This document shows positions 1 through 13,336 of a stretch of 15,446 bases of DNA, one piece after another; positions within the stretch are counted from its first letter, which is position 1; the number at the start of each line of letters is the position of its first letter. The DNA comes from a virus: positions 1 to 15,446 of the IMG/VR virus record IMGVR_UViG_3300000478_000009. The stretch is one strand, 5' to 3'. The position numbers and the translations under genes are program-made. Below the pieces are notes generated by a model, which searched no databases, was not told the origin of the DNA, and worked only from the letters and a program-made list of their open reading frames with translations.

Positions 1-1005
1 TGAATATCATGGTCGCCAATTTCAACGTTTAGGACTTCGACGTCATAGACTCTCATTCCATTTTCGTTGAAAACCATTCCTGGACGTGGAGAACCATCTT
101 CTGATTTCTTACCAAGAATGATGTTACGAACATGATCTTCGCTTGCCGACCAGAAATCTTCTACTCTAATCTTGCGAAGAGAGGCTTTCACCACACTTCG
201 TACGTGATCGCAGAGAAGTTTTACATAGTTGGATACGCTAAACCACTTCGTGGGATCGTCTCCTTCAAAGTTGACTCTTAGAGCAACCTTTAGTTGCACC
301 TTGACATGATCAGCAGTTTCGGCCGTGATAATGTCGGTTACTTTGTTGTGCTCAACCTGGAGATAAGCAGTCTTGAACAACTTATCTGTGGTCTTTGGAC
401 GCCAGTGCTTAGAGCAAGAGTTTCCAAAGTTTCATTGAATCCAAGTAGAACACGCTGTGGTCCTCTTTCTACACGGCGATTACCGGCAGTATCAACTACC
501 ATAACAGCATAACCTGTCCACGGGTTGATTTTTGGAACGCGGCAAATTTGTCATTTCCAAGCGTGACGGTTCGAGGTTCGGAATAAGTTGCGGCACGAGT
601 AAACTCGTCACCACCCATTTCTGCTCCGGACTGATAAGCCGAAAAACTTGCATCGGCAAATACAGCTTCCTCTAGGCGCATGCTGTTAGCAGCAAGGCCC
701 TTCTTTTTCATCGTAGTTGCTAGATCACCCTCAGAAACCATGCCCCGACGAGTAGTCGGAGAACGTTGCTGGATAGCTCTAAGAGTACGGTTGTACTCCA
801 TCGCCTCAGCATTTCCAGGATACATTGCCTCAGATTCGGCATCAGTTAGAACACGACGAACAAACACCTCTTTTCGAGGATCGGGTAGGCACATTGTGCC
901 ATCCTTGCCGCCATGAACCATTCGAATTGCTCCGGTATGACGGTCGAGAACATATCGTCCATCACCAGCCGGAATAGCCGTTGCAAAATGCTTTGTTTTC
1001 CGTCA
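1..1005 (-). pseudogene. Downstream continuation of the major-vault-protein (MVP) homolog, readable only by switching frames at least three times. Segment 1003->499 is the listed 496..921 ORF. Segment 552->381 is in a second frame. Segment 431->1 is in the original frame and runs off the window.
   Basis: Manual translation of the minus strand gives three stretches that each match MVP. 'TAIPAGDGRYVLDRHTGAIRMVHGG' corresponds to MVP '[27 protein letters not shown]'. 'RVPKINPWTGYAVMVVDTAGNRRVERGPQRVLLGF' corresponds to MVP '[30 protein letters not shown]'. 'RPKTTDKLFKTAYLQVEHNKVTDIITAETADHVKVQLKVALRVNFEGDDP...VEVLNVEIGDHDI' corresponds to the MVP shoulder '[52 protein letters not shown]...VVSSVDVQSVEPVD'. 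The three stretches are in three different frames. The MVP comparison is from memory, not a database search. Confidence 0.5.
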
Positions 1006-2051
1006 TAGCGAATGGCAGAATGCTGTTCGCATGGGAAATAAATTGGCGTAGTTTCGCCAGTAATGAAAAGCTCGTCGCCTTCCTTGTAGGTTTTACCCTT
1101 TGGACCATGATCACCACTGGTATCAGTGTACTCGGCAATAACCTTGATATGAAGGCCCTGAATAGAACCATTCAATTCGATTGGTCGGAAAATGCGCTCG
1201 CCATCATTGTTTGTGTAAAACGTTTCGGTTGGAAGTGGGAAAACCACGTCTGGTCCACGAACATAACGCTTGTTTCCGTTTTCGTCGATAAGAATGCAGT
1301 ATTGGAGACGCTCTAGGGTAAGAGCTTCACGAACATACTTGCCTCTCTCGTCAGCTACAACTTCGATACCGGTCGGAGGAATGTAGAAGCTAACTTCCGT
1401 TCCTCTAATAACCAATAGTCGGCCTACGGAAAGATCCTCAGGGATGCTTTCGGTTGCAACCAAAACTTCTGCTTCGGTTTCATCAGGTGAACCGGAGGAT
1501 TTTTTGGTTGTAGCATCGGCCGATGCTTTCTTCATAACTGCATCGGTCCAGTTTTCCTTTGCTGCTTGCTCGTCGTACACACGTACGATAAGATACTGGT
1601 TACTGCGAAGCTGATGGCCTTCAATAACCTTGACATGCTGTCGAGGCCAAAGAGCAAAGCTTACAGGGCCAGGAATATGTACACGCTGACCAATCAGAAG
1701 CTCCACATCAACAGACTTGGTGCCTGCTTCTGGAAATTTTCCATCCTTGGTCGGGTTGTACATTACTGCATAGTGACCAGTTGGCACCACAGTATTAACC
1801 TGTGCTGCTTCACTAAGAGGCACTGCCTCAAAGCGACCAGACTGGATATTGTAGACAACTGGTTCATCCTGCGCTTGTGCGTTAACAACAGTAGGACCGC
1901 AACGAACACAGGTTACACCATTGGTTGTATCACGAGTATACACGAATTCACCACGTGGCAATACTAACTCATTGGTCGTACGCCTGCTGGCTCTACGCCG
2001 TGGTATGCCTCGTTCGTCGAGTTCATCGACATAATCAAGTTCATCAGCCAT
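846..2051 (-). CDS. Major vault protein (MVP) homolog, N-terminal MVP-repeat region. This is an intact 401-aa ORF whose native reading appears to continue beyond its stop in other frames.
   Basis: ATG at 2051 with GGAG 9 nt upstream. 'VNTVVPTGHYAVMYNPTKDG' matches MVP '[24 protein letters not shown]'. 'FYIPPTGIEVVADERGKYVREALTLERLQYCILIDENGNKRYVRGPDVVF' matches the MVP repeat '[49 protein letters not shown]'. 'GDELFITGETTPIYFP' matches 'GDHWLIRGPLEYVPS'. The last ~45 codons before the stop at 846 do not match, because the real frame switches near 996-1003. Confidence 0.7.
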   Translation of the reverse strand: MADELDYVDELDERGIPRRRASRRTTNELVLPRGEFVYTRDTTNGVTCVRCGPTVVNAQAQDEPVVYNIQSGRFEAVPLSEAAQVNTVVPTGHYAVMYNPTKDGKFPEAGTKSVDVELLIGQRVHIPGPVSFALWPRQHVKVIEGHQLRSNQYLIVRVYDEQAAKENWTDAVMKKASADATTKKSSGSPDETEAEVLVATESIPEDLSVGRLLVIRGTEVSFYIPPTGIEVVADERGKYVREALTLERLQYCILIDENGNKRYVRGPDVVFPLPTETFYTNNDGERIFRPIELNGSIQGLHIKVIAEYTDTSGDHGPKGKTYKEGDELFITGETTPIYFPCEQHSAIRYDGKQSILQRLFRLVMDDMFSTVIPEQFEWFMAARMAQCAYPILEKRCLFVVF

Positions 2052-2064
2052 TTTGTTTCTCCGT

Positions 2065-2118
2065 TTTGTAAGATCCGGAGCTAGCTTGACCTTTGTAAGA
2101 TCCGGAGCTAGCTTGACC
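2065..2118. promoter_or_regulatory. Perfect tandem direct repeat, 2 x 27 bp (TTTGTAAGATCCGGAGCTAGCTTGACC), 14 nt upstream of the MVP-like start codon. Each unit carries the palindromes TCCGGA and AGCTAGCT, a GATC site and a TTGACC -35-like hexamer. Candidate operator/promoter.
   Basis: Units at 2065-2091 and 2092-2118 are identical base for base. The palindromes are read directly from the sequence. On the plus strand TTGACC(2086-2091)-17 nt-TAGCTT(2109-2114) resembles a sigma70 promoter, but it points away from the MVP gene. Confidence 0.6.
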
Positions 2119-2149
2119 GACGTGGATTACTTCATAAACCGGGATATGA

Positions 2150-2185
2150 ATCTTAGAATAAGAAAGAATTCGGGTGGTCGAATTT
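2150..2185 (-). terminator. Weak hairpin (AATTCG/CGAATT, loop GGTGGT) followed by a T-rich tract on the minus strand. It lies between the 99-aa gene and the MVP-like gene.
   Basis: Inverted repeat at 2167-2172 / 2179-2184. The minus-strand downstream sequence is TTCTTTCTTATTCT. The stem is short and AT-rich, so this is weak. Confidence 0.25.
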
Positions 2186-2191
2186 GATAAA

Positions 2192-2491
2192 TTAAACAGT
2201 GGCTTTTGCTTTTAGGGCTACCTGTTCTAGCCAAGCAAGCAGATTATCATCAACTAAATCTACTTCCCTTTTAAGCTCTTCAATCATGGCTTCATCGGCT
2301 TCTTCGGAAGGCTCGAAATACTTGTGTAGATCAGACCAAGCTTTTGTTGCTTCTTGCATGGCCTGTATAAACTCTTTGAGAATATCTTTTCCTTCACCAC
2401 CAAGATTGCGTTGTAAAACATCGCCTGTATCAATTTGTTCTTGAATGGCTTCTCGAATTAGCTGTCTGAGTTGTGACCTGGTGATTTTCAT
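2192..2491 (-). CDS. Hypothetical acidic 99-aa protein.
   Basis: ATG start. It overlaps the upstream gene by 1 nt (TAATG coupling). No recognisable motif. Confidence 0.5.
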   Translation of the reverse strand: MKITRSQLRQLIREAIQEQIDTGDVLQRNLGGEGKDILKEFIQAMQEATKAWSDLHKYFEPSEEADEAMIEELKREVDLVDDNLLAWLEQVALKAKATV

Positions 2492-2745
2492 TATTGCGTC
2501 CGTTTCTCTTCGAAAAGATATTCTAACAAATATCCTAGTTTCTGTTCTTCGAGATTTTCTCTTGATTTCTTACTTTGCTTTTCTTTCGGCAAAAGCTTTT
2601 CAATGCGGAAATTTAGCAAAGGTTTGCCATTGATGGTTGGTTGTCCAAGTTCGTTGACTCCAATAGACTTCACTTTAATTCGTTTATTCTTAAATTTACC
2701 GCCTAAAAGGATATCACCAACTTCTATGTCTAGTTCTATGGACAT
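2491..2745 (-). CDS. Hypothetical basic 84-aa protein.
   Basis: ATG at 2745. It is translationally coupled to the 99-aa gene. The lysine-rich middle (GGKFKNKRIKVKSIGVNELGQPTINGKPL) suggests a small nucleic-acid-binding protein, but this is speculative. Confidence 0.5.
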   Translation of the reverse strand: MSIELDIEVGDILLGGKFKNKRIKVKSIGVNELGQPTINGKPLLNFRIEKLLPKEKQSKKSRENLEEQKLGYLLEYLFEEKRTQ

Positions 2746-2761
2746 TGAACTTAAATAGCAA

Positions 2762-2784
2762 AAGCCCGATGGAAAATCGGGCTT
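2762..2784 (-). terminator. 9-bp stem-loop (AAGCCCGAT-GGAAA-ATCGGGCTT) between the HNH gene and the 84-aa gene. Putative terminator or attenuator.
   Basis: Perfect inverted repeat 2762-2770 / 2776-2784 with a 5-nt loop. Both strands have U-rich flanks (GCUUUGGGUUUG on plus, UUGCUAUUU on minus). It sits only ~17 nt upstream of the 84-aa start, so attenuation or RNA processing is as likely as full termination. Confidence 0.45.
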
Positions 2785-2877
2785 GCTTTGGGTTTGTAAA
2801 GCAGAAACTTATCTTAAGTTGGGTTTTAGGAACATTGTACTACAATCATTGCAATACTGCGTTATCAAACCTGGATA

Positions 2878-3723
2878 TTAGAAGTTGAGATTTGGATGCT
2901 CTTTTTTATGACATTCAGAACACAATACCAGACCCGACACGTTATTTTTAATATGATAATCAGCTACCTGTTCTGCTATGTGAATTTTTAGATTGAACAT
3001 TTTATCATTATTGGGATGAATGGATTTTGAAATAAAATATTCCCAATTATTTTCTTCTGCTACTGTTTTCAAGATGGTTGAAAAATTTTCTTTGTCATGG
3101 TGTACGTGCAAATTTTTTGGCGACTTACATTTTTTACATTTAAATTGCGCAGCTGCTAACAAGGGGTATTTCCATTCCTTGTAAAGTTTGGTGTTTGAAT
3201 AGGAAACCTCATAAAGAGATGAAATTCCGCCTTTCCATTGTGAATGTTCTGGTCCGTAGAGTGTTGGCACGGTTCCATTCAAGCGACCTTTCTTCATACG
3301 TTCAGCCCGAACTTTGAGTTCTTCAGAGTTGGAAGAGATTGTTTCAGAACCTTTTACTCCGTATTGAGCTACAGAAGAGTGGTCTTCTTTAGTTAAGCCC
3401 TTGTTCCAGATTCTTAATTCACCTTCCTTCCACATTCTGTTTCGTGTCTTTTGACTTTTTTCTTGAGCTTTTTTATTGTTGCCCCAATTGTTTTTACCGG
3501 ATACACAGGCGGCGTGCCCTCGAACAAATTCTCGAAATCCACGTGACATGTCAAGATACTTTACTTCGCCACCGCAACCACACCCACACGTGGGTTCAAT
3601 GCCATTGCGGTATAAAAGTGTATAAAGCTTCTTCGATGTTCCTTTGTGCAATTTACGAAAATGCACAGACAAAGAAATTAGTTTGGAATATTGTTTATCA
3701 CAAATGGGACAGTTAAAAGACAT
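2878..3723 (-). CDS. HNH homing-endonuclease-like protein with an N-terminal C2H2 zinc finger. The likely true start is the ATG at 3723; the ORF track starts at an in-frame TTG at 3759.
   Basis: N-terminus 'MSFNCPICDKQY...HFRKLH' is a C2H2 finger. A CGCGCGG cysteine cluster follows. C-terminus 'CKKCKS...HVHHD...N...CSECHKKEH' is the HNH motif with flanking CxxC pairs. The gene is AT-rich relative to the structural genes. GGAG lies 10 nt upstream of ATG 3723. Confidence 0.8.
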   Translation of the reverse strand: MSFNCPICDKQYSKLISLSVHFRKLHKGTSKKLYTLLYRNGIEPTCGCGCGGEVKYLDMSRGFREFVRGHAACVSGKNNWGNNKKAQEKSQKTRNRMWKEGELRIWNKGLTKEDHSSVAQYGVKGSETISSNSEELKVRAERMKKGRLNGTVPTLYGPEHSQWKGGISSLYEVSYSNTKLYKEWKYPLLAAAQFKCKKCKSPKNLHVHHDKENFSTILKTVAEENNWEYFISKSIHPNNDKMFNLKIHIAEQVADYHIKNNVSGLVLCSECHKKEHPNLNF

Positions 3724-3757
3724 GAGCCATACTCCATTGTTAGTTTGAGTATGGCTC
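3724..3757 (-). promoter_or_regulatory. 11-bp perfect stem-loop (GAGCCATACTC ... GAGTATGGCTC, 12-nt loop) whose 3' arm ends exactly at the HNH start codon. The GGAG Shine-Dalgarno sits in the stem.
   Basis: Inverted repeat 3724-3734 / 3747-3757. The SD GGAG is the complement of CTCC at 3733-3736. Phage homing endonucleases such as I-TevI are classically controlled by this kind of RBS-sequestering hairpin. Confidence 0.6.
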
Positions 3758-3853
3758 AAATGCTGTTAGTTGTATAGGTTACTGTATGTTTTGATATTGC
3801 TTGTTGCTTCCCCATATACTCGTAAGCCCTTGAAAACACAGGGGAAAAATAAC

Positions 3854-4345
3854 TCAAAATTGTAAAACTGCGTTGTCGAAGCGGATGGTCAGCGAAATTT
3901 CTGCAAGGTCAGCAGTTGAGTCGTAAGAAACGTCATTGAAGTTAGCTTCTGTAATAAATGCGCCCTTGATATCCCATAGCTGAACTACGGTACCAACTGG
4001 GTCAAGCATTTTGAGCTGAATGTCACGCTTGTAGAAATCTGCGTAACCACCACGGCCGGAAACTGATTCGAAGCAGAGTCGGATCCATTCCATTACCTGT
4101 TGTGCGCCTGCTGGTGCGATTGGATCGTGAAGAGTAACCGAAATCGTACCAAAGGTTGTCTTACCTGCGAGGTAACGAGTGTGGTTAATCCAATTGACCG
4201 TAACTTCTTCTGTGGTGTAAGTTGGTCTTGCTGCGGTCTTCACAATGAAAGAGTCAATGCCTTCAATAGCAAGTAAGAATCTACGCTTTGCAAGCGGTTC
4301 AAACTTGGTAGGTAGCATATCGGTTACTGAAAGAGTTTCTGCCAT
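3854..4345 (-). CDS. Tail tube protein, T4 gp19-like.
   Basis: ATG start with GGAGA 8 nt upstream. 'RRFLLAIEG...FIVKTAARPTYTTEEVTVNWINHTRYLAGKTTFGTISVTLHDP...AQQVMEWI...LWDIKGAFITEANFNDVSYDS...ISLTIRFDNAVLQF' runs parallel to T4 gp19 'PNLFQVEIS...FQCKATALPAGIVEKIPVGFMNRKINVAGDRTFDDWTVTVMND...ARQKFVDWQ...IKGLWPTNVGELQLDWDSNNEIQTFEVTLALDYWE'. The T4 sequence is from memory. Confidence 0.7.
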   Translation of the reverse strand: MAETLSVTDMLPTKFEPLAKRRFLLAIEGIDSFIVKTAARPTYTTEEVTVNWINHTRYLAGKTTFGTISVTLHDPIAPAGAQQVMEWIRLCFESVSGRGGYADFYKRDIQLKMLDPVGTVVQLWDIKGAFITEANFNDVSYDSTADLAEISLTIRFDNAVLQF

Positions 4346-4398
4346 GGTTTATTCTCCGAACTGTTCCTTTTCTTAAATAGTGGTTTCAACAGTTTTTA

Positions 4399-4890
4399 GT
4401 GGATGCTCAAATCCTTGTAGATGTAAATAGTCATGTTTTAGATTTTCTACTTACTTACACTATCGTTCTTCTTGTTTTGATGAATTTAGTCATTTTCAGG
4501 TTACATCAAACAAACATAACTATCATCATGAGTTTTTATTGCAATGGTTCTGTTGGTGGTATGCCAATAAAATTGAAAATTCTAAGCACGTCGGAAGAAC
4601 GTACAAAAGGTTTCCAATTCCAAAAAAACCCACCCATGTTAGGAGAAGGGTTGCTGTTTCTCTTTGACGAACAAGAACCGCAAACATTTCATATGAGAAA
4701 TGTCGGCTTCGATATTGACTTACTTGGATTTGACTCTGTTGGTCGAATGGTTTGTAAACTGCCGATGAAAGCACAAGCAGAAAAACTCTATAAGACGCCA
4801 CCGGTCAAGTTTGTCATTGAGGCACCGAGAGGTTGGGCAAAATGTTTAGAGCCAGGAGAATGCGTTCTGAGGGTAAGAAGAATATCTTGA
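4399..4890 (+). CDS. DUF192 (COG1430)-like small protein with an N-terminal hydrophobic anchor. The start is uncertain: GTG at 4399 as in the track, or ATG at 4480, 4528 or 4561.
   Basis: Core 'ERTKGFQFQKNPPMLGEGLLFLFDEQEPQTFHMRNVGFDIDLLGFD..GRMVCKLPM........YVIEAPRGWAKCLEPGECV' fits the DUF192 pattern (GLM.R...GMLF.F....FWMKNT..PLDI.F.D..G.V.....M.P......VLE...GW.....GD.V). 'LLTYTIVLLVLMNLVIF' is TM-like. No good SD before any candidate start. AT-rich. Confidence 0.5.
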   Translation: MDAQILVDVNSHVLDFLLTYTIVLLVLMNLVIFRLHQTNITIIMSFYCNGSVGGMPIKLKILSTSEERTKGFQFQKNPPMLGEGLLFLFDEQEPQTFHMRNVGFDIDLLGFDSVGRMVCKLPMKAQAEKLYKTPPVKFVIEAPRGWAKCLEPGECVLRVRRIS

Positions 4891-4894
4891 GACC

Positions 4895-5512
4895 CTACTT
4901 TACTCTTTGTTGAAGCAAGTACACATAGGTCTCATGAGTGTTTGCCGATGCTGCTAGTTGATCATTTAGACCAAGAGTAAGAGCACCCATTTCCTCTAAT
5001 GATGCAAACATAGACTCAAGAAAGTCAAGATACGCCTTTTCAAGCCTAAGGCCAGATTCAGCAATTTCGTCAGCTGAAGCATCTACCATACAACCAGCTT
5101 CCTCCATAATTTTGACAGCATTTGAAGCAATCATCAATGGGCAAGCAAGATTTTCATCATTAGTAACACCAACGGCTTTCTCAATCGCACCGTCGATCTC
5201 ATCTTGAACTTCTGTATAGATGCGATCATAAAGTTCAGCATGATCACCAGAGAAGCCGGTACCTTTTGTTAGATGATGTGCTGCATGAAACCAAAGATGA
5301 ATGGCTCTAAGATAAGAAACATATCCTGCCAAAAAATTTTTGCAATCAGCAGAAATTTCTTTGGTTGAAAGTTTGTCAACTGGTTCGGTGTTAAATTGAA
5401 TAGGAGCAAGTTCAGGTTCAACAGAAACAATTGGTGCATGCATGTCTGCGACCATGTCTACCTGTTCTTTTAGAATTCCTGCCAGTTGTTGCCATCTTTG
5501 TTTGGTACTCAT
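4895..5512 (-). CDS. Dps/ferritin-like four-helix-bundle protein with a ~70-aa N-terminal extension.
   Basis: ATG start with GGAAG 5 nt upstream. 'LRAIHLWFHAAHHLTKGTGFSGDHAELYDRIYTEVQDEIDGAIEKAVGV' parallels E. coli Dps '[47 protein letters not shown]'. The Dps sequence is from memory. Confidence 0.5.
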   Translation of the reverse strand: MSTKQRWQQLAGILKEQVDMVADMHAPIVSVEPELAPIQFNTEPVDKLSTKEISADCKNFLAGYVSYLRAIHLWFHAAHHLTKGTGFSGDHAELYDRIYTEVQDEIDGAIEKAVGVTNDENLACPLMIASNAVKIMEEAGCMVDASADEIAESGLRLEKAYLDFLESMFASLEEMGALTLGLNDQLAASANTHETYVYLLQQRVK

Positions 5513-5534
5513 TGTTCTTCCAATGTTCCAATAT

Positions 5535-6455
5535 TTACTCAGATAAGTAGTTCAATAAAACTTCAATAGGCATTCTTGATTCGACCATCCGATCTTCATC
5601 TGATTTCTTTTCTTGTTCAACCAACTCCATGACCTGTTCAACAATGTTGCTAAAGGCAAGCTCGCCCAATCTAGAACCACCAATCTCTATATATTGCAGC
5701 TTGTCAACCAGACGTTCCTTATCAATCTTTGCCAGACGTTTAAAATAATCAAGGTAACTCTGTTCTCTTCCTTCACGTTCTTCGAATTTGGCAAGAGCTT
5801 TGACAAAATCTTTTAGCTTTAGATTCGGATCTGACATGTCAATGCCAGCATCAAAAAAGTATTCATACTCAGGCTTTGAACCGCCACGATAAACAGCATT
5901 GTAATATGGTTTGGACTGTAGATACTCCTCACGGGAATATTCCTGCCATTGTTCTTTCCCTGGTGGTTGAATCCAAACACGGGTAATTTGAGAAGGTTTT
6001 ACCAATCCCATCAATAATGCTTGAGGCTCAGCCCCGCTGGAAAGAAGCGTGTAAGACATCCAGGGTCTAAAGGAATTTGGAAACTTTTCTTTGACCCAAT
6101 CAAGAGCGGTTTGACCTTTCTCTCTCGTTATGTCTCGTCCAGTAACACCACTCCAATCAGTACCGTGGAGAAATTTTGCGTATGTTTTTATTTCTATAAC
6201 TGCTCCACTACCAAATTGCCTAGCAGTTTCAAAATCTGGAGCAACGAAAACGCCTCTGTGTTCACTACCACCATATACACGTCGATAAACTTGGCGTGCA
6301 TCAAAACCATTAATCATTCTGGCTAATTCAAGCGGTGTTGTTCCATGATAAACTGTAATAACGTCTGTTGGTTTAGCATTGGCAATTTCTTCTCGTTTTT
6401 CGGGGTCAATTGCCTCAAGAAGAAGAAATAGATTGTTTTTTTTAGCTAATTTCAT
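5535..6455 (-). CDS. ADP-ribosyltransferase-fold protein of the H-G-T-motif clade (KptA/Tpt1 RNA 2'-phosphotransferase or PARP-like NAD-binding lobe), plus a ~200-aa C-terminal region of unknown function. The track starts at TTG 6479; ATG at 6455 is preferred.
   Basis: 'ITVYHGTTPLELARMINGFDARQVYRRVYGGSEHRGVFVAPDFETARQFGSGAVIEIKT' parallels E. coli KptA '[53 protein letters not shown]' (from memory). The N-terminal Arg-rich RNA-binding half of KptA is absent. Confidence 0.5.
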   Translation of the reverse strand: MKLAKKNNLFLLLEAIDPEKREEIANAKPTDVITVYHGTTPLELARMINGFDARQVYRRVYGGSEHRGVFVAPDFETARQFGSGAVIEIKTYAKFLHGTDWSGVTGRDITREKGQTALDWVKEKFPNSFRPWMSYTLLSSGAEPQALLMGLVKPSQITRVWIQPPGKEQWQEYSREEYLQSKPYYNAVYRGGSKPEYEYFFDAGIDMSDPNLKLKDFVKALAKFEEREGREQSYLDYFKRLAKIDKERLVDKLQYIEIGGSRLGELAFSNIVEQVMELVEQEKKSDEDRMVESRMPIEVLLNYLSE

Positions 6456-6722
6456 GGTTCTAACAGCAGCATCTTTCAAGAATAATTAGGATAGTAAGGC
6501 AAGTAACGAATAAAAATACCCTTAAAGAAGCAACTTAGTTTATTTAGTCTTGTGATTAATGATTTCATTTTTATGTTTTTATGGTCAATTGTCGAAACTT
6601 ATGAAGGAAAACCTATTTATTCAAGCCAATACTTGGCACCGTGTAATCAAAGGACCCAATGCGAAACTACCATTGGTTGTCAAAATCTTCAAATATCTAA
6701 AGAAGAACGGATAATTACAAAC

Positions 6723-7574
6723 ATGGCAAACTTAGAACAACTTTTGGAATGGCTTCTCAATGAACAAGAGGACCAAAAATATGATATCGATTACGTTTTA
6801 CATGAGCCAAAGCGTAAAAAAATTCCTCACGAGAAGCTAAATCTCTACAAAAATGAGGGAGCACATAACATTCTAGCTGCGCTCAAAAAGGCTTCAAAAG
6901 AAGAGATAGATTATTGGAGCAATTGGTATCAACATGCTCATGGCCACGTTAGAGAACTTGCCGAACAATACGATATTCCTGTTGAAATAGCAGCAGCAGT
7001 TGCCGCAGTTCTAAGTCCAAATCTTGGATGGAATGCAAGCCTAATGGCCGCTAAAAGAGTTCTGGATAACTGGATGCATCTCGGCGGTGCCGAAGGATAC
7101 CAATTCTGGCCAAATATTCCTGCATACAAAACCAATGTAAACAAGGCAATGAAGATTCTTGAAACTGGGAATCTTGATTTGGTTAAAGGTCCAAAAGTTA
7201 CCGTATTCTATCACTCTCTTTTAAACCCAGACAGAGTTGAACGTGAACTTGTATTGGATGGTCATGCTATTAACGTCTGGAGAGGAATCAAAACTCCACT
7301 CAAAAATCTTAGACAACCAACCAAAGAAGAACGCAAAGCCATCATTCAAGATTATAGAAAAGTGGCAGATCTTGTTGGTTTAACTCCACAACAACTTCAA
7401 GCTGTAACTTGGTTTATCTGGAAGGCTGTAACATCACCACCTGAAGTTCATGGTCAGGTAGAAGTAGAGCAGCCAGCAGTAAAAGAAGCTCGACGACGGC
7501 TTATGCCAATGATCAAAGAGGTTGTTTCAGAACAATTGAGACGTCGAAAAATGCTCAATTCCTTTTCACTCTAA
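6723..7574 (+). CDS. Hypothetical protein, 283 aa from ATG 6723 (the track extends to GTG 6552). The only plus-strand gene inside the accessory block, convergent with the GNAT-ParB gene. It contains a 'LVLDGHAINVWRG' segment weakly reminiscent of a ParB/Srx motif.
   Basis: Long open frame with protein-like composition. The 20-nt 3' overlap with the convergent gene is acceptable. No confident family assignment. Confidence 0.5.
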   Translation: MANLEQLLEWLLNEQEDQKYDIDYVLHEPKRKKIPHEKLNLYKNEGAHNILAALKKASKEEIDYWSNWYQHAHGHVRELAEQYDIPVEIAAAVAAVLSPNLGWNASLMAAKRVLDNWMHLGGAEGYQFWPNIPAYKTNVNKAMKILETGNLDLVKGPKVTVFYHSLLNPDRVERELVLDGHAINVWRGIKTPLKNLRQPTKEERKAIIQDYRKVADLVGLTPQQLQAVTWFIWKAVTSPPEVHGQVEVEQPAVKEARRRLMPMIKEVVSEQLRRRKMLNSFSL

Positions 7575-8691
7575 TAGGAATGCCGGTTTGATGAGCCGCC
7601 CAAGCTCTATTGTGCCCGTCGGTCACATAGGCGTATTCCATTCCAAGATCATCATCTGAAAGTGGACGAGACCAGTCCAATTCGTGCTCATATCCGCCTT
7701 CTTCTGCTTCTTTGTATTGTTCAAGGTCTTGTTCATCCACAATGTGGATACCACCACGAATAGGTGGCATTCGACCCCAACCATTTTTCTTCATATAAGC
7801 AGAGAATTTAGGTATTTTTTCTTCAAAGTCTGTAGAAGCATTTACACCTGAACCACGAAAAAGTTCTGATTGAACCTCGTCCCAAGTTTTCTTTCCTTCA
7901 TTGAAAAGACCTGCCAGCCGCTTGAAACGTCTGTTTGAAAAAACCCCTTCTTCTATTGGTTTTGCATCTTTGTATCTCAATTCCCACACGTGGAGTGGAA
8001 TACCTTTATAATTGGCATAAGTAACCCTACCTCTACCGTCACCAATAGTAGAGAAAGTTTCTCCTGTCACAACAATAACCGGAGGAGGGTTGTCGCCCCA
8101 CTCCTTTGTCATTTGAGCCCAATGTTTTCCTCGAAATGCTTCGAGTTCATTGTCATCCTCTATGTCTTCCATCCATGAACTAAGATCATCATAATAGCCA
8201 AGTTCATCAACTGTAAGCTTACCAAGATATCTCAAATCGAAATCATCGTAGGATGAATCTTCGTCAACTTCTTCAAATGACATCGCAGTGTGATCAATGG
8301 CATCTGAAATATCATTGTAAGATGGCTGAGGAATGGTATTGACCGTTTCCAAACTTTCTTTAAGATGTCCAGGAGGTCGGTACATCAATTCCATAAAGTC
8401 ATAATTTTTGTAACGGCCTTTGTTTAACACAAAACCCAAACTCTTATAAAAGTTTGTTAGTTTGTTTTTGTTATAACCCCATTCTGAACTTGGAGTCAGG
8501 GTTACTATTTTTTGGACTTTGTCAGCATATTCATTGATGGCTTTAAAAATTTCTCTACCAATGCCACGACCACGAAATTTCGGGTTGACAACTATCAATG
8601 CTACAGAAATGTAATTTGGGTGTTCATAAACAACCCATTTGTCCAAATATGGCAAATATTTTTGTTTAATTTCTTTTATAGACATTGTCAT
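7555..8691 (-). CDS. Fusion protein: N-terminal GNAT acetyltransferase, then an acidic linker, then two ParB/Sulfiredoxin-like segments.
   Basis: GNAT motif A is 'LIVVNPKFRGRGIGREIFKAI' and motif B is 'FYKSLGFV'. The ParB/Srx-like signatures are 'PPVIVVTGETFSTIGDGRGRVTYANYKGIPLHV' and C-terminal 'YVTDGHNRAWAAHQTGIPIRV'. The ATG overlaps the upstream HAD gene stop as ATGA. Confidence 0.6.
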   Translation of the reverse strand: MTMSIKEIKQKYLPYLDKWVVYEHPNYISVALIVVNPKFRGRGIGREIFKAINEYADKVQKIVTLTPSSEWGYNKNKLTNFYKSLGFVLNKGRYKNYDFMELMYRPPGHLKESLETVNTIPQPSYNDISDAIDHTAMSFEEVDEDSSYDDFDLRYLGKLTVDELGYYDDLSSWMEDIEDDNELEAFRGKHWAQMTKEWGDNPPPVIVVTGETFSTIGDGRGRVTYANYKGIPLHVWELRYKDAKPIEEGVFSNRRFKRLAGLFNEGKKTWDEVQSELFRGSGVNASTDFEEKIPKFSAYMKKNGWGRMPPIRGGIHIVDEQDLEQYKEAEEGGYEHELDWSRPLSDDDLGMEYAYVTDGHNRAWAAHQTGIPIRVKRN

Positions 8692-9209
8692 TGACTGTTG
8701 TTAATTAGCAAATTAATAATCTTTTCTTTATGTTCTTTAGTAAGTCCATCCTTATCAAACGACGTTTGAACCCAATATTTTGACAATGGTCTTGCTTTAT
8801 AATACGTCCTAGACCAACCCAGGTCTTGGTCGTCCAAAATTACATATCTATCAACGCCAATATTATATTTTAACCATTCAACAACTTCTTCGGCACGTTC
8901 TGTTGGTTCATATTCGGTTCCATTGTTACTGGTTCGCCAAAGCAATACTGGAGTTGAAGAATAAATCGGATATTTCAATCCTGCTCTGGCTAAAACAACA
9001 CTCATTCGTGGGTCTACACGGGTACTGGAAGACAAAACAATTTTACACCCCGTTCTGGTCACTATGTCATTAATCATGGCAACCCTAACAGGGTCTAGGT
9101 GTTTTACCAGCTCATCTATCGTTGCCGTAAAGCTTGGTTTTGGAGCGTTTGTTTTAATCCATTCCAAATCGTTTAGAACGCCGTCTACGTCAAGAAACAA
9201 TACTTTCAT
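8688..9209 (-). CDS. HAD-superfamily phosphatase (DxDGxL motif). It resembles the small HAD phosphatases found in RNA-repair-type gene neighbourhoods.
   Basis: N-terminal 'KVLFLDVDGVLND' is the HAD motif I. A later 'VILDDQD' is an HAD motif-IV-like acidic cluster. ATG start. Confidence 0.65.
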   Translation of the reverse strand: MKVLFLDVDGVLNDLEWIKTNAPKPSFTATIDELVKHLDPVRVAMINDIVTRTGCKIVLSSSTRVDPRMSVVLARAGLKYPIYSSTPVLLWRTSNNGTEYEPTERAEEVVEWLKYNIGVDRYVILDDQDLGWSRTYYKARPLSKYWVQTSFDKDGLTKEHKEKIINLLINNSQ

Positions 9210-9251
9210 GTGTCCATGTTGAGCTAAAAACTTTAGCGTTTAAACGACGAA

Positions 9252-9272
9252 AGCCTCGTCTTAGACGAGGCT
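9252..9272 (-). terminator. 9-bp GC-rich stem-loop (AGCCTCGTC-TTA-GACGAGGCT) between the 82-aa gene and the HAD gene.
   Basis: Perfect inverted repeat. On the minus strand it is followed by UUUCGUCGUUU. Candidate intrinsic terminator or RNA-stability hairpin. Confidence 0.45.
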
Positions 9273-9297
9273 CTCAAATCTTTCTAGTAAGACTAGG

Positions 9298-9546
9298 TTA
9301 TGATTTTATTAACCAATCTTCATGTATTATCTCTACAGAGTTTCCTAAAATTAGGAAGAGCCATTTTCCTTCGTCAGGAAAAGGAAAATTTTGTAAATTT
9401 TGCCACCCACTAGCATCAAACCAATATTGTGGAATTGATACACTTTTTTTGCTTAATAAGAATCGATCAACAACAAGACAAAATTGAGGTCTGTCAGAAG
9501 GAAATTTTCGTTTCACGAGACTGCCTATTGCAAATGGTTTACGCAT
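9298..9546 (-). CDS. Hypothetical 82-aa protein.
   Basis: ATG start overlapping the GIY-YIG stop by 8 nt. No recognisable motif. Confidence 0.4.
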   Translation of the reverse strand: MRKPFAIGSLVKRKFPSDRPQFCLVVDRFLLSKKSVSIPQYWFDASGWQNLQNFPFPDEGKWLFLILGNSVEIIHEDWLIKS

Positions 9547-10414
9547 TTACCCACCCTGAGGCGCTCTTGCATTTACCTTTCACCATTTTGGTGAAGCTAG
9601 AATAAGAGATGCCTCGCTGTCTACAATCTTCTTTAGCATTTTCACTTATTATAAACTGTTCGCCAGTTATCTTGTGTTTTAAGATAATACCAGCATACTT
9701 GGCACCGGCTATCTTAGCTCTATGTTCCTCAGTCAACGGTCTTCTCTTTTCACCTTTGCGCTCAATGTATGTTGGAGGTTTCGTACCTAAAAACCAACCA
9801 CTAGATGATTTAATTTTTCTTTTGAGCATCAGGTGGAAGGATTTGTAAGAGAGATTGCGGGCCTCACACCAGGCTCTAACAGATCCTTCTATTGTGGTCG
9901 TCTCGCCCGTTTTTTTATTGGATACTGTCACATTAGCAGAATGGGCATTCCAACGTTTATGAGCATAATCTTTTGCCTTTTCTCTTAAGGAAGGATCTGA
10001 ATAAATCTTTGTCATTATTTTACTCATTTTTTCTTTTCTATCTTCCTTCCATGGATGGTAACCAATATCAACAGCATACTTTGTTCCATTATAACACATG
10101 TTCCTATTATCAAATGCTTCATCTATATATTTTTGTTCTTCTGTTACACGAAGAAGTGACCACTCGTCTTTATCGCCCGATGTTGGGAGTTTTACGACTT
10201 TTACAACCTCATATTGGAAAGCATCTTTACCACATTTATTAAAATCTCTTTGTAAAAAGAGATTGTGGTGAGTTCCCTTTTTTAGGGCAGAAAGATGTTC
10301 TCTTGAACGTTGTTTAAATCTAGCGGCAGAGCCATAATACACTCTGCCGTTTTTTTTATTTAAAATTCTATACACGCCACCGTCATTTGCGTGACCTTTG
10401 AAAATGTTTTCCAT
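9539..10414 (-). CDS. GIY-YIG homing endonuclease (Seg / I-TevI-like), free-standing, with a basic C-terminal DNA-binding region.
   Basis: 'GVYRILNKKNGRVYYGSAARFKQRSREHLSALKKGTHHNLFLQRDFNKCG...FQYEVV' carries the GIY...YIG, Arg, Glu and Asn signature. The lysine-rich C-terminus has repeated 'SSSGWFLG' / 'SASGWVNA' modules. AT-rich. AGAGG lies immediately before the ATG. Confidence 0.8.
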   Translation of the reverse strand: MENIFKGHANDGGVYRILNKKNGRVYYGSAARFKQRSREHLSALKKGTHHNLFLQRDFNKCGKDAFQYEVVKVVKLPTSGDKDEWSLLRVTEEQKYIDEAFDNRNMCYNGTKYAVDIGYHPWKEDRKEKMSKIMTKIYSDPSLREKAKDYAHKRWNAHSANVTVSNKKTGETTTIEGSVRAWCEARNLSYKSFHLMLKRKIKSSSGWFLGTKPPTYIERKGEKRRPLTEEHRAKIAGAKYAGIILKHKITGEQFIISENAKEDCRQRGISYSSFTKMVKGKCKSASGWVNA

Positions 10415-10585
10415 ATGACCTCTATATTTGCTACTGTTAGTAGTTTAGATACTTGAAGGTCATATGTCTAACGGATATCAAACACAATATTTTTTGCACA
10501 TAGAATAAAAACAAAACGAAAAAGGCCACCTTTTTCGAAGGTGGCCTTAGTCAAACTATTCATAACCTATTATTTAGGTCATATG
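10412..10585. repeat. Three copies of the 10-mer AGGTCATATG within 175 bp. One is inverted at 10412-10421, covering the GIY-YIG SD and start codon. Two are direct, at 10457-10466 and 10576-10585, and the last overlaps the MCP stop codon.
   Basis: Exact matches read from the sequence. The two direct copies are 119 bp apart and bracket the MCP terminator hairpin. Confidence 0.5.
10504..10548 (-). terminator. Rho-independent terminator downstream of the major capsid gene.
   Basis: On the minus strand, stem AAGGCCACC / GGTGGCCTT (9 bp, GC-rich) with loop TTCGAAAAA is followed by UUUUUCGUUUUGUUUUU. Confidence 0.8.
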
Positions 10586-12501
10586 ATACCCATGTCAAGA
10601 ATGGTTACGGTTGCGTAGAAGTCATTTCTGACCATCTTCTTACCGTAACGGGTCATGACACCCTTACGTGGAGTAAAGTCTTCCTGAGCGTAGATAACTG
10701 GAGTAAGGATAAGTGGCACGTATGGTGCGTAGATGAATCCTGACTCAAGGAAGGTGTTACCCTTCAATCCGACAAGAACCTTGTTGCTTGGGAAGTATGG
10801 ATCCTTGTAAACAGTGTATCTGTTGTTCAAGGTACCGACTGCCTCTGCTCCGATTACCATGTTGTCACGAACCTGACCGTCAGCATCTACTCTGTAGGAA
10901 GGCTTGTAGGCAACAAGGTGCTCAAGGATGGTGCAGACATCTGGGGAGGTAACAATGAAGTTACCGGAACCACGGAGTGTCTTACGGTGAATGGTGTTTG
11001 CTGCGTCCGTAATCGTCTCAAGAAGGGTCTGGTACCACTCTTGAATGTTTACGAAGGCCATTGGACCTGGGGAAAGCGTGCTGCTCTGAAGAGCCTCTTG
11101 TCCGGTGAACTTGTTGACAAGCTTACCTGGAGCACGAGACCAGTAGAGGTTAGCTGCGCCTGCCTGCGTAAGAAGGTCGTTCAAGATTTCACGGTCAATG
11201 TCAAGCGTGATCATCTCAGAGAGAATGTTCGTAAGCTCAACTTCTACGTCGATTGAGTAGAATGCCGTAAGGTCTTGAGCCATTTCTGGCGACCAACGAG
11301 CCCTAAGCTTACGGGTCTGAGCCGTTACGCTGGTGGACTCAATGCGGATGTCAACTTCTGGGATTCGTGGGCTGGAATCGACTGCAAAGTCAGATTCGAA
11401 GCTTGGAATCGTAAGAGTAGAACCATCAGCATTTACGCTAAGTGCGTCTGCGATTGCTGCGGAAGCGGTAACTGCGTTACCTACTGTACCATCAGGATCT
11501 GGTGGGGTACCTGCGTTTGCAAGACGAACAACGTGTAGAACGTGGGAGCCATTAAGCGGATCTGGTGTGAAGATACCGGTTGTAGCATTCCAGTTACCAC
11601 GCTGGTTCATCTGACGAAGGTTGAGCACGCCACGACCACCCTGGTACTTCTCGCCCCACTCAACAGCAGAGTTGGTTGCTGCACCGAAACCGGTGAGTGC
11701 AATCTGGTTGAGGTTGTTGAGGTCAGCACCTGTGATCTTGCCCGTGAACTCGGATGCGCTTACGAATACGAATGCGTAGTCAAGCACGCCGTCGGTAAGA
11801 TCGTTCTCAACACGGGTGTCGTACATGACGAAACGTGCGTTGAGACCTAGGAAGTCATCAGCGGTTGCTACGGAGCCACCTGGGGTCCAAATAGAACCTG
11901 ATGCCCAATAACCGACTGAGTCGGTTGAACCAGAAAGGAAACGGCTCTGCTTGTGAACCTTTGAGTAGCCGTGACCTACAAGGTCATACTGACCACCGGT
12001 TGCAAGAGAACCGGAACGGATGCCAACACCACGTGGGTTGTTGTATACCGAATCCTGGCTGGTGTAAGTTGATGGATTCACAACGCTCGTTGTTGCGAAC
12101 TGGTTAGCTGCGGTTCCAGCGTCACCACCAACCGAGCTGCCGTAGGTGTAATCGAGGTAGAAAAGAAGACCGGTTGGAAGGCTCATTGGCTGAACCGATA
12201 CGATCTCATTTGAAATCAAACCTGCGAAAACACGGCGAACGATTGGGAATGCAACGTTTGTGAAACCTGCAATCTTACCGCTTGAGGTCAAAGAAGCACC
12301 ACCGAGGGAAAGTGCGTTGGTTTCCTTGAGAAGCTCAGCTGCCTGGTTCTCAAGAAGACGTGCCATTCCGTCACGGTTCATGCCTTTGAGGCCCTCAAGA
12401 AGACCAGTTGCTCCCCACTTCTTTACAAGTCGTGGTGAGTCTGCACCAAGAGAGCGACGGTGTACGCCTTCTGCTAGTTGCTCTAAAGTAAAAGTCTTCA
12501 T
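10579..12501 (-). CDS. Major capsid protein, T4 gp23-like, 640 aa with an enlarged insertion domain.
   Basis: 'LVKKWGATGLLEGL' matches T4 'LLNKWKPLLEGEGL'. 'FPIVRRVFAGLISNEIVSVQPMSLPTGLLFYLDYTYG' matches T4 'AVMGMVRRAIPNLIAFDICGVQPMNSPTGQVFALRAVYG'. 'TRKLRARWSPEMAQDL' matches T4 'KSRQLKAAYSIELAQDL'. C-terminal 'GFIYAPYVPL...TRYG' matches T4 'GIYYAPYVALTPL...KTRYG'. ATG start with GGAG 8 nt upstream. 'LLKE|TNALSLGGAS' is a candidate propeptide cleavage site at the position equivalent to T4 'FLTE|AEIGGDHG'. Confidence 0.9.
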   Translation of the reverse strand: MKTFTLEQLAEGVHRRSLGADSPRLVKKWGATGLLEGLKGMNRDGMARLLENQAAELLKETNALSLGGASLTSSGKIAGFTNVAFPIVRRVFAGLISNEIVSVQPMSLPTGLLFYLDYTYGSSVGGDAGTAANQFATTSVVNPSTYTSQDSVYNNPRGVGIRSGSLATGGQYDLVGHGYSKVHKQSRFLSGSTDSVGYWASGSIWTPGGSVATADDFLGLNARFVMYDTRVENDLTDGVLDYAFVFVSASEFTGKITGADLNNLNQIALTGFGAATNSAVEWGEKYQGGRGVLNLRQMNQRGNWNATTGIFTPDPLNGSHVLHVVRLANAGTPPDPDGTVGNAVTASAAIADALSVNADGSTLTIPSFESDFAVDSSPRIPEVDIRIESTSVTAQTRKLRARWSPEMAQDLTAFYSIDVEVELTNILSEMITLDIDREILNDLLTQAGAANLYWSRAPGKLVNKFTGQEALQSSTLSPGPMAFVNIQEWYQTLLETITDAANTIHRKTLRGSGNFIVTSPDVCTILEHLVAYKPSYRVDADGQVRDNMVIGAEAVGTLNNRYTVYKDPYFPSNKVLVGLKGNTFLESGFIYAPYVPLILTPVIYAQEDFTPRKGVMTRYGKKMVRNDFYATVTILDMGII

Positions 12502-12556
12502 GGTATTCTCCTCGAATCTCCTGTTTCTAAGTATGTGTTAGAATATCTATTTTCCG

Positions 12557-13336
12557 TTAGTCAACCTTTTTGATCCCGGCAAGTACCTGCCAGCGATTTG
12601 GAGATTGTCCATTGGATTCATGACCTGTCTGTGGCTGAGCGGCCTCAGTGAGGTTTGCGCTCCCTGGTTTGGTCACCTTTGAGGAAGAACCACCCAATTT
12701 GCGGGAAGCTGATGCATGCTCGTCGAGCCTGCGCTTAATCTTTGTGTAAATAGCCTTTGTTTCGGCTACGCTTGTACCCTTGTCAAGGTGCTCAACAATT
12801 TGTTGTAGAGCTTTCTTGGTAAGAGCCTTTTCAGAGAGTGCTCTCTGAAGGAACTTGCTGTAATAAACTGCCTTTGAAGTAAAGAGGTTGGTCTCGGCAA
12901 GCTGCTTATTCAAACCGGCCACCTGCTTTTCTTTTGCTTCAAGCAATTTCATTGCCTTGCTGAGCTTCTTCTCAAGAAGCTTGTTCTTGCGAGCAAGGTG
13001 ACTGAGCTTACGGGATTCCATCTTCATTCCTGCCTCTTCTAGATCCATGTCTACGTCCATGCCTTCTCCAAGGTCTTCTTCATCGGCAAGAAGAACATCT
13101 TCTTCGCCAGACTCTGCATCGGCCATGTCCATATCAAGGTCCATATCCATTTCTTCGTCTTCGCCTTCGTCGTCAACAATTTCGACTTCTTCGTCATCGT
13201 CGCCACCGACATTGAGGGCTACATCGACATCAAGGTCGTCGATGCCAAGAGCAGCAAGCTCTTCTTCAACCTCAGGTGGAAGATCGACGGAAAGAACCAA
13301 GTCTGCGTCGTCTTCAACTTCAAGATCTTCCATCAT
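12557..13336 (-). CDS. Prohead scaffolding protein, T4 gp22-like.
   Basis: Position immediately upstream of the MCP. The N-terminal third is hyper-acidic (MDMDLDMDMADAESGEEDV...) and is followed by a K/E/L-rich coiled-coil-like region. L/I-x-E motifs (LAE, LTE, IVE) typical of gp21 cleavage sites are present. The ATG overlaps the upstream gene's stop as ATGA. Confidence 0.7.
   Translation of the reverse strand: MMEDLEVEDDADLVLSVDLPPEVEEELAALGIDDLDVDVALNVGGDDDEEVEIVDDEGEDEEMDMDLDMDMADAESGEEDVLLADEEDLGEGMDVDMDLEEAGMKMESRKLSHLARKNKLLEKKLSKAMKLLEAKEKQVAGLNKQLAETNLFTSKAVYYSKFLQRALSEKALTKKALQQIVEHLDKGTSVAETKAIYTKIKRRLDEHASASRKLGGSSSKVTKPGSANLTEAAQPQTGHESNGQSPNRWQVLAGIKKVD

What the first reader, a model, noticed from the sequence alone, without database searches (positions are those of the whole stretch)
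380..1010. The MVP-like gene is broken by at least three frame shifts while all neighbouring genes are intact
MVP-matching translation is in frame A from 2051 to about 1000. It moves to a second frame near the T4 run at 996-999; adding one base there would join 'TPIYFPCEQHSAIRYDG' to 'KTKHFATAIPAGDGRYVLD'. It moves to a third frame around 520-545 ('TVTLGN' to 'RVPKINPWTGYAVMVVD'). It returns to frame A around 385-430 ('NETLETLALSTGVQRPQ' / 'RPKTTDKLFK'). Three indels in ~600 bp contrast with clean open frames for MCP, scaffold, tail tube and the endonucleases. Possible explanations are a recently inactivated gene decaying to a pseudogene, a local homopolymer-rich assembly error, or deliberate modulation.
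Basis: seen in the sequence. Interest (0 to 1): 0.7.

Follow-up and report, generated by a model that had tools for sequence, protein, structure and literature searches.

The report
Three one-base gaps, likely assembly errors
A vault-protein gene of a very large phage is split by three one-base deletions in this sequence, but near-identical copies of the same strain from other datasets are intact, so the breaks are most likely assembly errors or a very recent lesion.

Summary
The major-vault-protein (MVP) homologue on the minus strand starts at ATG 2051 and runs off the left end of the window. It changes frame three times, at 996-999, 540 and 401/402, each time through a missing single base.

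Restoring those three bases gives 684 codons that match, residue for residue, an intact 899-aa protein found in other public assemblies.

- **Relatives are intact.** Seven related contigs carry an open frame at all three sites.
- **The same haplotype exists intact.** Two contigs have the window's own haplotype or that of its closest relative and differ from them almost only at these sites.
- **One deletion is shared.** Only the A5-to-A4 deletion recurs, in one other assembly. The other two are private and lie at or between strain-variable third-codon positions, close to where the window switches haplotype.
- **No sign of decay.** Of the nucleotide differences from four related contigs, 140 of 148 are at third codon positions of the true frame, and no amino acid has changed.
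- **No recoding signal.** There is no slippery heptamer, no significant downstream structure, and no relative with the same frame structure.

Verdict: this is neither a decaying pseudogene nor programmed recoding. The most likely cause is consensus or assembly error, and the A4 variant may be a very young null allele. Interest is low.

The parts
1..2051 (-). MVP (major vault protein) homologue. The window holds the first 684 of 899 codons, and the gene runs off the left end.
   Evidence: Pfam MVP_shoulder and Vault_3. PDB major vault protein chains match at E=1e-18. The intact 899-aa protein P0001 is identical to the repaired translation.
996..999 (-). Site 1: an A4 run where seven related contigs have A5 (GACGGAAAAACAAAG). 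This -1 deletion moves the true reading from frame 0 to frame 2. It is shared only with L004.
539..541 (-). Site 2: GCCGCG where all eight related contigs have GCCGGCG or GCTGGTG. One G of a GG pair is missing (the remaining G is at 540). It is flanked by two C/T strain-variable third-codon positions (541, 539). The true reading moves from frame 2 to frame 1. Private to the window.
401..402 (-). Site 3: CTGG-CGTCC where relatives have CTGGTCGTCC or CTGGCCGTCC. The missing base is itself the C/T polymorphic third-codon position. The true reading moves from frame 1 back to frame 0. Private to the window.
846..848 (-). Stop codon that ends the 401-aa ORF (2051-846) created by the site 1 deletion. 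The last 51 codons of that ORF are out of frame.
2065..2118 (.). Perfect 27-bp x 2 tandem duplication ending 14 nt upstream of the MVP start codon. It marks the window/L004/L010/L011 lineage and is independent of the frame breaks.

Best explanation
The gene is normally an intact 899-aa MVP homologue under strong selection, in a very large T4-like (gp23-type capsid) phage. The three frame breaks are single-base deletions specific to this one assembled sequence.

The two private deletions (540 and 401/402) are most likely consensus or merging errors. They would arise where the assembler passed through a stretch in which co-occurring strain variants differ. The window is a mosaic of haplotypes seen separately in other runs, and it switches between positions 889 and 751.

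The A5-to-A4 deletion recurs in one other assembly on the same local haplotype. It is either a homopolymer miscall (or the same reads assembled twice) or a very young null allele segregating in the population.

Shown: the positions of the deletions, their absence from near-identical haplotypes, and the lack of any decay or recoding signal. Inferred: the technical origin, because no reads could be examined.
For: 1. **Same haplotype, intact.** L010 (Logan SRR926290, 4,096 bp) covers window 304-4396 and carries the window's haplotype, including the 27-bp duplication. It differs by only 2 SNPs plus the three extra bases, and its ORF is open for 583 aa through all three sites.
2. **L004's haplotype, intact.** L011 (SRR28264341) matches L004 at every variable position of the gene but has A5 and an intact 899-aa ORF.
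3. **Site table.** Seven of the eight related contigs are intact at all three sites. L004 has A4 only, and the window alone has all three deletions.
4. **No protein change.** The repaired translation matches P0001 at 684 of 684 residues, against 37 nucleotide differences from L001.
5. **Third-position substitutions.** Differences fall at third positions of the true frame in 37/37 (L001), 32/32 (L002), 15/17 (L004) and 56/62 (L003) cases, both upstream and downstream of the breaks.
6. **Indels outnumber SNPs between assemblies of this strain.** Window against L010 shows 3 indels and 2 SNPs. Window against L005 shows 2 indels and 0 SNPs over 7,983 bp. L005's two indels shorten T runs and break two other genes that are intact in the window.
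7. **Position of the private deletions.** Site 3 removes exactly a C/T polymorphic base, and site 2 lies between two such bases.
8. **Strain mixing nearby.** The window is L004-like at 889-2158 but SRR926290-like at 304-751 and 4775-12757. The Logan contig L010 ends at 304, inside this variable stretch.
Against: - A4 occurs in two assemblies (the window and L004, from SRR5011273). In both it is linked to the same two SNPs (C889, T2158), as expected for a real inherited variant, unless both derive from the same reads.
- The three deletions span 600 bp of 15.4 kb. Uniformly placed events would do this with P of about 0.0045. The 20 homopolymers of 6 or more bases are not among the window's indel differences from L004, L005 and L010. 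A generic platform error model therefore fails, and a local cause has to be assumed.
- Clustering in one gene is also what selection would leave behind after a real first inactivation.
- I could not learn the sequencing platform, the assembler or the read support of the source.
Confidence: 0.72

Rival explanations
1. Genuine, very recent inactivation. A5 to A4 arose first on the L004-type haplotype and broke the gene. The window's genome then acquired two further neutral deletions downstream, making it a young pseudogene.
For: - A4 is shared by two assemblies on the same local haplotype.
- All three lesions lie in one gene while 15 kb of neighbours are clean, as selection would allow.
- All three are deletions, in line with the known deletion bias of decaying genes (established knowledge).
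Against: - There are no amino-acid changes and no excess of non-third-position changes.
- The window has 0 substitutions against L010 across 304-751 and 0 against L005 over 8 kb, yet 2 private indels. At that divergence, about 0.03 neutral indels would be expected in the dead part of the gene (my estimate, assuming indels occur at about 15% of the substitution rate).
- Intact alleles exist on both parental haplotypes.
- L004 keeps a 513-aa open downstream frame.
Confidence: 0.2
2. Programmed recoding. The full-length protein would be made through -1 ribosomal frameshifts or transcriptional slippage at the three sites, or the gene would work as a deliberately split gene.
For: All three shifts are -1 and sum to a return to frame 0. 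At site 1, tRNA-Lys on AAA could in principle re-pair one base back on A_AAA (sequence).
Against: - No relative has the same frame structure. Seven related contigs and 2,759 homologues, typically 830-920 aa among the 120 listed, read through in one frame.
- Sites 2 (GCC_GCG) and 3 (GGC_GUC) give the P-site tRNA nothing to re-pair with in the -1 frame, and none of the sites is an X_XXY_YYZ heptamer (sequence).
- The RNA downstream of site 1 is no more structured than shuffled sequence, z=-1.46.
- A run of four A is too short for efficient transcriptional slippage (established knowledge).
Confidence: 0.02
3. Several independent null alleles of the phage MVP segregate in the population because losing the gene is favoured, for example to escape a host defence. 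The assembler merged them into one contig.
For: - Two different broken states are seen: A4 alone in L004, and A4 plus two more in the window.
- The window is a mosaic of haplotypes.
Against: - The gene is otherwise under very strong purifying selection in all sampled lineages.
- Only two of nine sequences carry any lesion.
- There is no independent evidence for a defence system that targets this protein.
Confidence: 0.05

Closest known systems
Single-base indel (frameshift) errors in metagenome-assembled contigs, especially where co-occurring strains are merged into one consensus
   Same: The 1-nt deletions are unique to one assembly and absent from the same haplotype assembled elsewhere. They sit at or beside polymorphic sites. 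Among assemblies of this strain, indels outnumber SNPs.
   Different: One of the three (A4) recurs in a second assembly. The errors do not fall in the longest homopolymers. Read evidence is lacking.
Young pseudogene or null allele of an accessory phage gene
   Same: The ORF is interrupted by frameshifts and premature stops.
   Different: There is no relaxed selection and no amino-acid change, and intact alleles exist on the same haplotypes.
Programmed -1 ribosomal frameshifting (for example dnaX, or the phage tail chaperone G/GT)
   Same: The shifts are in the -1 direction. Site 1 lies in an A run.
   Different: There is no X_XXY_YYZ heptamer, no stimulatory structure and no conservation of the shift. 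Relatives encode the protein in one frame.
Viral MVP homologues reported from human-gut Caudoviricetes (Santos et al., bioRxiv 10.1101/2023.11.10.566534)
   Same: A phage-encoded protein with MVP shoulder and vault-repeat domains, related to bacterial MVP homologues.
   Different: This one belongs to a gp23-type lineage found on contigs of up to 507,812 bp, and one close relative comes from hot-spring reads. I did not compare the sequences directly with ctOa11 or ctRi15.

Membership tests
Major vault protein (MVP) family | MVP shoulder domain (PF11978) above Pfam's gathering score | tested here: met
   97.5 bits (cut-off 25) in window piece 431-3. 93.1 bits in the intact P0001, residues 570-681.
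Major vault protein (MVP) family | Vault repeat domains N-terminal to the shoulder | tested here: met
   Vault_3 scores 32.0 bits (cut-off 28.8) at residues 521-559 of P0001. In the window fragment alone it scores 22.6 bits, below the cut-off. The N-terminal repeats are not recognised by Pfam (Vault, E=0.12).
Major vault protein (MVP) family | Sequence similarity to solved MVP chains, and comparable length | tested here: met
   phmmer E=1.2e-18 to PDB major vault protein chains, residues 516-848 against 467-829. Length is 899 aa against 861-893 aa.
Major vault protein (MVP) family | Assembly into a vault-like shell | not testable with these tools
   No structure or assembly prediction was attempted, because it does not bear on the frameshift question.
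Programmed -1 ribosomal frameshift | Slippery heptamer X_XXY_YYZ at the shift site | tested here: not met
   The zero-frame sequences read directly from the window are: site 1 GAC_GGA_AAA_CAA, site 2 GCC_GCG_TTC, site 3 GGC_GTC_CAA. None fits the heptamer.
Programmed -1 ribosomal frameshift | Stimulatory RNA structure downstream | tested here: not met
   The fold of 1010-900 has z=-1.46, and 15 of 200 shuffles fold as well. Only site 1 was tested.
Programmed -1 ribosomal frameshift | The frame structure is conserved in homologues | tested here: not met
   Seven related contigs read through in one frame, and L004 shares only site 1. The homologues listed are typically 830-920 aa.
Pseudogene (decaying gene) | Disrupted reading frame | tested here: met
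   Three -1 deletions and premature stops at 846-848, 496-498 and 338-340.
Pseudogene (decaying gene) | Relaxed selection, shown by substitutions spread over codon positions or by amino-acid changes | tested here: not met
   140 of 148 differences from four related contigs are at third positions. There are 0 of 684 amino-acid differences from P0001.
Pseudogene (decaying gene) | The lesions are reproducible in independent data from the same lineage | tested here: inconclusive
   Sites 2 and 3 are absent from L010, which has the same haplotype. Site 1 is present in L004 but absent from L010 and L011. No reads were available.
Homopolymer phase variation or transcriptional slippage | A long mononucleotide tract (about 7-9 or more) at the variable site | tested here: not met
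   The tracts are A4/A5, G1/G2 and a single base.

The most novel reading that the evidence does not exclude
The deletions are real and mark repeated, independent loss-of-function of a megaphage MVP gene within a natural population. A4 would be present in two samples, with further lesions in the window. This would imply episodic selection to lose an otherwise tightly conserved vault-like protein, for example to escape a host defence that senses it.
Probability: 0.05. Interest if true: 0.5.

Novelty: not a real feature. Interest (0 to 1): 0.1.

Why it matters
The main value is as a caution. Taken at face value, this contig would be annotated with a broken or absent MVP gene, or read as recoding, whereas the lineage carries an intact and highly constrained 899-aa MVP homologue. 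If the A4 variant proved real, it would show only that the gene can be lost in some members of the population. The more interesting biology is a conserved vault-protein homologue in a phage found on a contig of about 0.5 Mb, and that does not depend on the frameshifts.

Tried and rejected
- **Cultured or deposited phages.** Megablast of window 1-2200 against the phage collection found no match.
- **PHROGs.** Only a weak match of unknown function for the last piece (E=0.013).
- **Exact DNA patterns.** I searched across site 1 in viral contigs and metagenome contigs, and across site 2 in metagenome contigs. None matched, so neither the source contig nor more copies could be pulled from those collections.
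- **Exact look-ups of the middle ORF piece.** The 141-aa and 132-aa versions are not on record.
- **Paper search for the run accessions.** This identified only DRR290133, as hot-spring reads. Nothing turned up for SRR926290 or SRR5011273, so their platforms remain unknown.
- **Shorter homologues as possible recurrent frameshifts.** The 690-741-aa proteins P0039, P0043 and P0126 are complete short forms followed directly by the next gene, so this idea was rejected.
- **Stripped ambiguity codes.** Removal of an ambiguous base could explain site 3 (a C/T position) but not sites 1 and 2.
- **Promoter and terminator scan around the 27-bp duplication.** Nothing informative.

Full report
**What is in the sequence**

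The minus strand carries a gene that starts at ATG 2051 and runs off the left end of the window. Translation in three frames shows that the homology-bearing reading moves between frames:
- frame 0 from 2051 to about 1000
- frame 2 from about 999 to 541
- frame 1 from 540 to 402
- frame 0 again from 401 to position 1

Each wrong frame soon meets a stop, at 846-848, 496-498 and 338-340.

Pfam places the last piece in MVP_shoulder (97.5 bits, cut-off 25) and the third piece in Vault_3 (E=1e-4).

**The intact form**

I repaired the three junctions and searched the protein collection. This gave 2,759 hits; most of the 120 listed are 830-920 aa and several are named major vault protein by JGI. The best hit, P0001 (899 aa), is 100% identical.

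With the bases restored exactly as in the relatives (A, G, T), the window's 684 codons match P0001 at 684 of 684 residues. P0001 has MVP_shoulder (93 bits) and Vault_3 (32 bits, above the cut-off). It matches solved MVP chains at E=1e-18.

**Where the lesions are**

P0001 and P0002 are encoded on Logan contigs L001-L003, which are 96-97% identical to the window in DNA. Alignment shows exactly three 1-nt deletions inside the gene:
- A5 to A4 at 996-999
- GCCGGCG to GCCGCG, with the remaining G at 540
- CTGG[T/C]CGT to CTGGCGT, between 402 and 401

There is also a perfect 27-bp tandem duplication just upstream (2065-2118).

All other indels between the window and its relatives lie in intergenic DNA or at gene ends. 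The neighbouring genes are indeed intact.

**No sign of decay**

Differences from the relatives fall at third positions of the true, shifted frame in 37/37 (L001), 32/32 (L002), 15/17 (L004) and 56/62 (L003) cases. This holds on both sides of the breaks. Together with the complete absence of amino-acid change, it means the sequence was shaped by selection on the full-length protein until essentially the present.

**Near-identical haplotypes settle the matter**

The 401-aa ORF created by the first deletion is on record in JGI/IMG, which is probably the window's source. It is also on the Logan contig L004 (SRR5011273).

- **L004** is 99.65% identical to the window over 12 kb, with only 2 SNPs between 754 and 11317. 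It shares A4 and the duplication but lacks the other two deletions, so its gene reads as 401 aa plus 513 aa.
- **L005** (SRR926290) equals window 4775-12757 with no mismatch. It has two shortened T runs, T8 to T7 and T7 to T6, and each breaks a gene that is intact in the window.
- **L010**, from the same run, covers window 304-4396. It has the window's haplotype, including all nine variable positions in 304-751 and the duplication. It differs by two SNPs (889, 2158) and by having all three bases present, and its ORF is open for 583 aa to the contig end.
- **L011** (SRR28264341) matches L004 at every variable position of the gene but has A5 and an intact 899-aa ORF.
- **L012 and L013** are also intact.

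The site table sums this up. Seven related contigs are intact at all three sites, L004 carries A4 only, and the window alone carries all three deletions.

**Interpretation**

Programmed recoding can be set aside:
- No relative has the same frame structure.
- No site is an X_XXY_YYZ heptamer.
- Sites 2 and 3 give the P-site tRNA nothing to re-pair with in the -1 frame.
- The RNA after site 1 is unremarkable, z=-1.46.

A decaying pseudogene is also unlikely for sites 2 and 3. The window shows no substitutions against L010 in 304-751 and none against L005 over 8 kb, yet it has two private indels. At that divergence, neutral decay would be expected to yield about 0.03 indels in the dead part of the gene. 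This is my own estimate and assumes indels arise at about 15% of the substitution rate.

Several observations point to a technical origin for sites 2 and 3:
- Among assemblies of this strain, indels (5) outnumber SNPs (2). All five are deletions that break an ORF in whichever assembly carries them, and all are absent from the sister assembly.
- Site 3 removes exactly a C/T polymorphic base, and site 2 lies between two such bases.
- The window is a mosaic. It is L004-like at 889-2158 and SRR926290-like at 304-751 and 4775-12757, with the switch between 889 and 751.
- L010 ends at 304, inside the variable stretch, which suggests co-occurring variants in that sample.

I infer that the private deletions arose when a consensus was built across strain variants.

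**What remains open**

A4 occurs in two assemblies on the same local haplotype (C889, T2158). That fits a real, very young variant unless both assemblies derive from the same reads.

The three lesions span 600 bp of 15.4 kb, which uniformly placed events would do with P of about 0.0045. They also avoid the 20 long homopolymers. A local cause is therefore needed, either an assembly junction or relaxed selection after a real first hit.

I put about 0.72 on the composite reading: sites 2 and 3 are artefacts, and site 1 is either an artefact or a very young null allele. I put about 0.2 on all three being real and recent, 0.05 on merged independent null alleles, and 0.02 on recoding. Only the reads can settle this.

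**Comparison with what is known**

The gene is a member of the MVP family by Pfam and PDB criteria. Phage MVPs have already been reported from gut Caudoviricetes (bioRxiv 10.1101/2023.11.10.566534). Homologues at 37-40% identity occur in three uncultured huge phages, LR756500, LR756501 and LR756503.

The frameshift finding itself is ordinary, being either an assembly artefact or a trivial null allele. Its novelty is low.

Noticed in passing
window 2065-2118: A perfect 27-bp x 2 tandem duplication (unit GGTCAAGCTAGCTCCGGATCTTACAAA on the minus strand) ends 14 nt upstream of the MVP start codon. It is present in the window, L004, L010 and L011, which come from at least three runs, so it is real. 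It is absent from L001-L003, L012 and L013. Any effect on expression is unknown, and the sigma-70 scan found nothing informative on the gene's strand.
   Followed up: partly
L012 (Logan SRR11476471_1340, contig 507,812 bp); L001 (73.9 kb): The same MVP gene (at least 90% identical) sits on a 507,812-bp contig, next to gp23-type capsid, tail sheath and tail tube genes. The window therefore probably comes from a phage with a genome of about half a megabase. One close relative, L003, comes from hot-spring reads (DRR290133).
   Followed up: partly
window 1-2051 and relatives: The phage MVP is under very strong purifying selection. There are 37 nucleotide differences from L001 and none of them changes an amino acid over 684 codons. 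This argues that the protein matters to the phage. Its role is unknown.
   Followed up: partly
window 11317-11788 (major capsid protein, minus strand): There is a cluster of 21 SNPs between the window and L004 in an otherwise near-identical 10 kb. Seven of them change an amino acid, within capsid residues 257-339. L005 carries the window's version exactly. This looks like a strain-variable patch of the capsid protein.
   Followed up: partly
window 6436-6443 and 9904-9910; L005: The Logan assembly of SRR926290 has T7 instead of T8, and T6 instead of T7. The first truncates a 306-aa gene to 260 aa, and the second splits the GIY-YIG endonuclease (291 aa) into 174 aa and 96 aa. This single-base indel noise affects other genes in other assemblies of this strain.
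   Followed up: yes
window 9539-10414: A GIY-YIG endonuclease gene lies between the capsid gene and the HAD-like gene in the window, L004 and L005. It is absent at that position in L001, where the capsid gene is followed after 100 nt by the HAD-like gene. This looks like a presence/absence polymorphism of a mobile endonuclease.
   Followed up: no
L001 16875-17879; L002 15121-16125; L006 9134-10141: An actin-like gene (Pfam Volactin, with a faint MreB_Mbl hit) lies a few kb downstream of the MVP gene in related contigs.
   Followed up: no
L006, L007, L008: Related phages at about 83% identity carry naturally shorter MVP genes (690-741 aa) that lack the C-terminal part. Each is followed directly by a DUF5661 gene.
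   Followed up: partly
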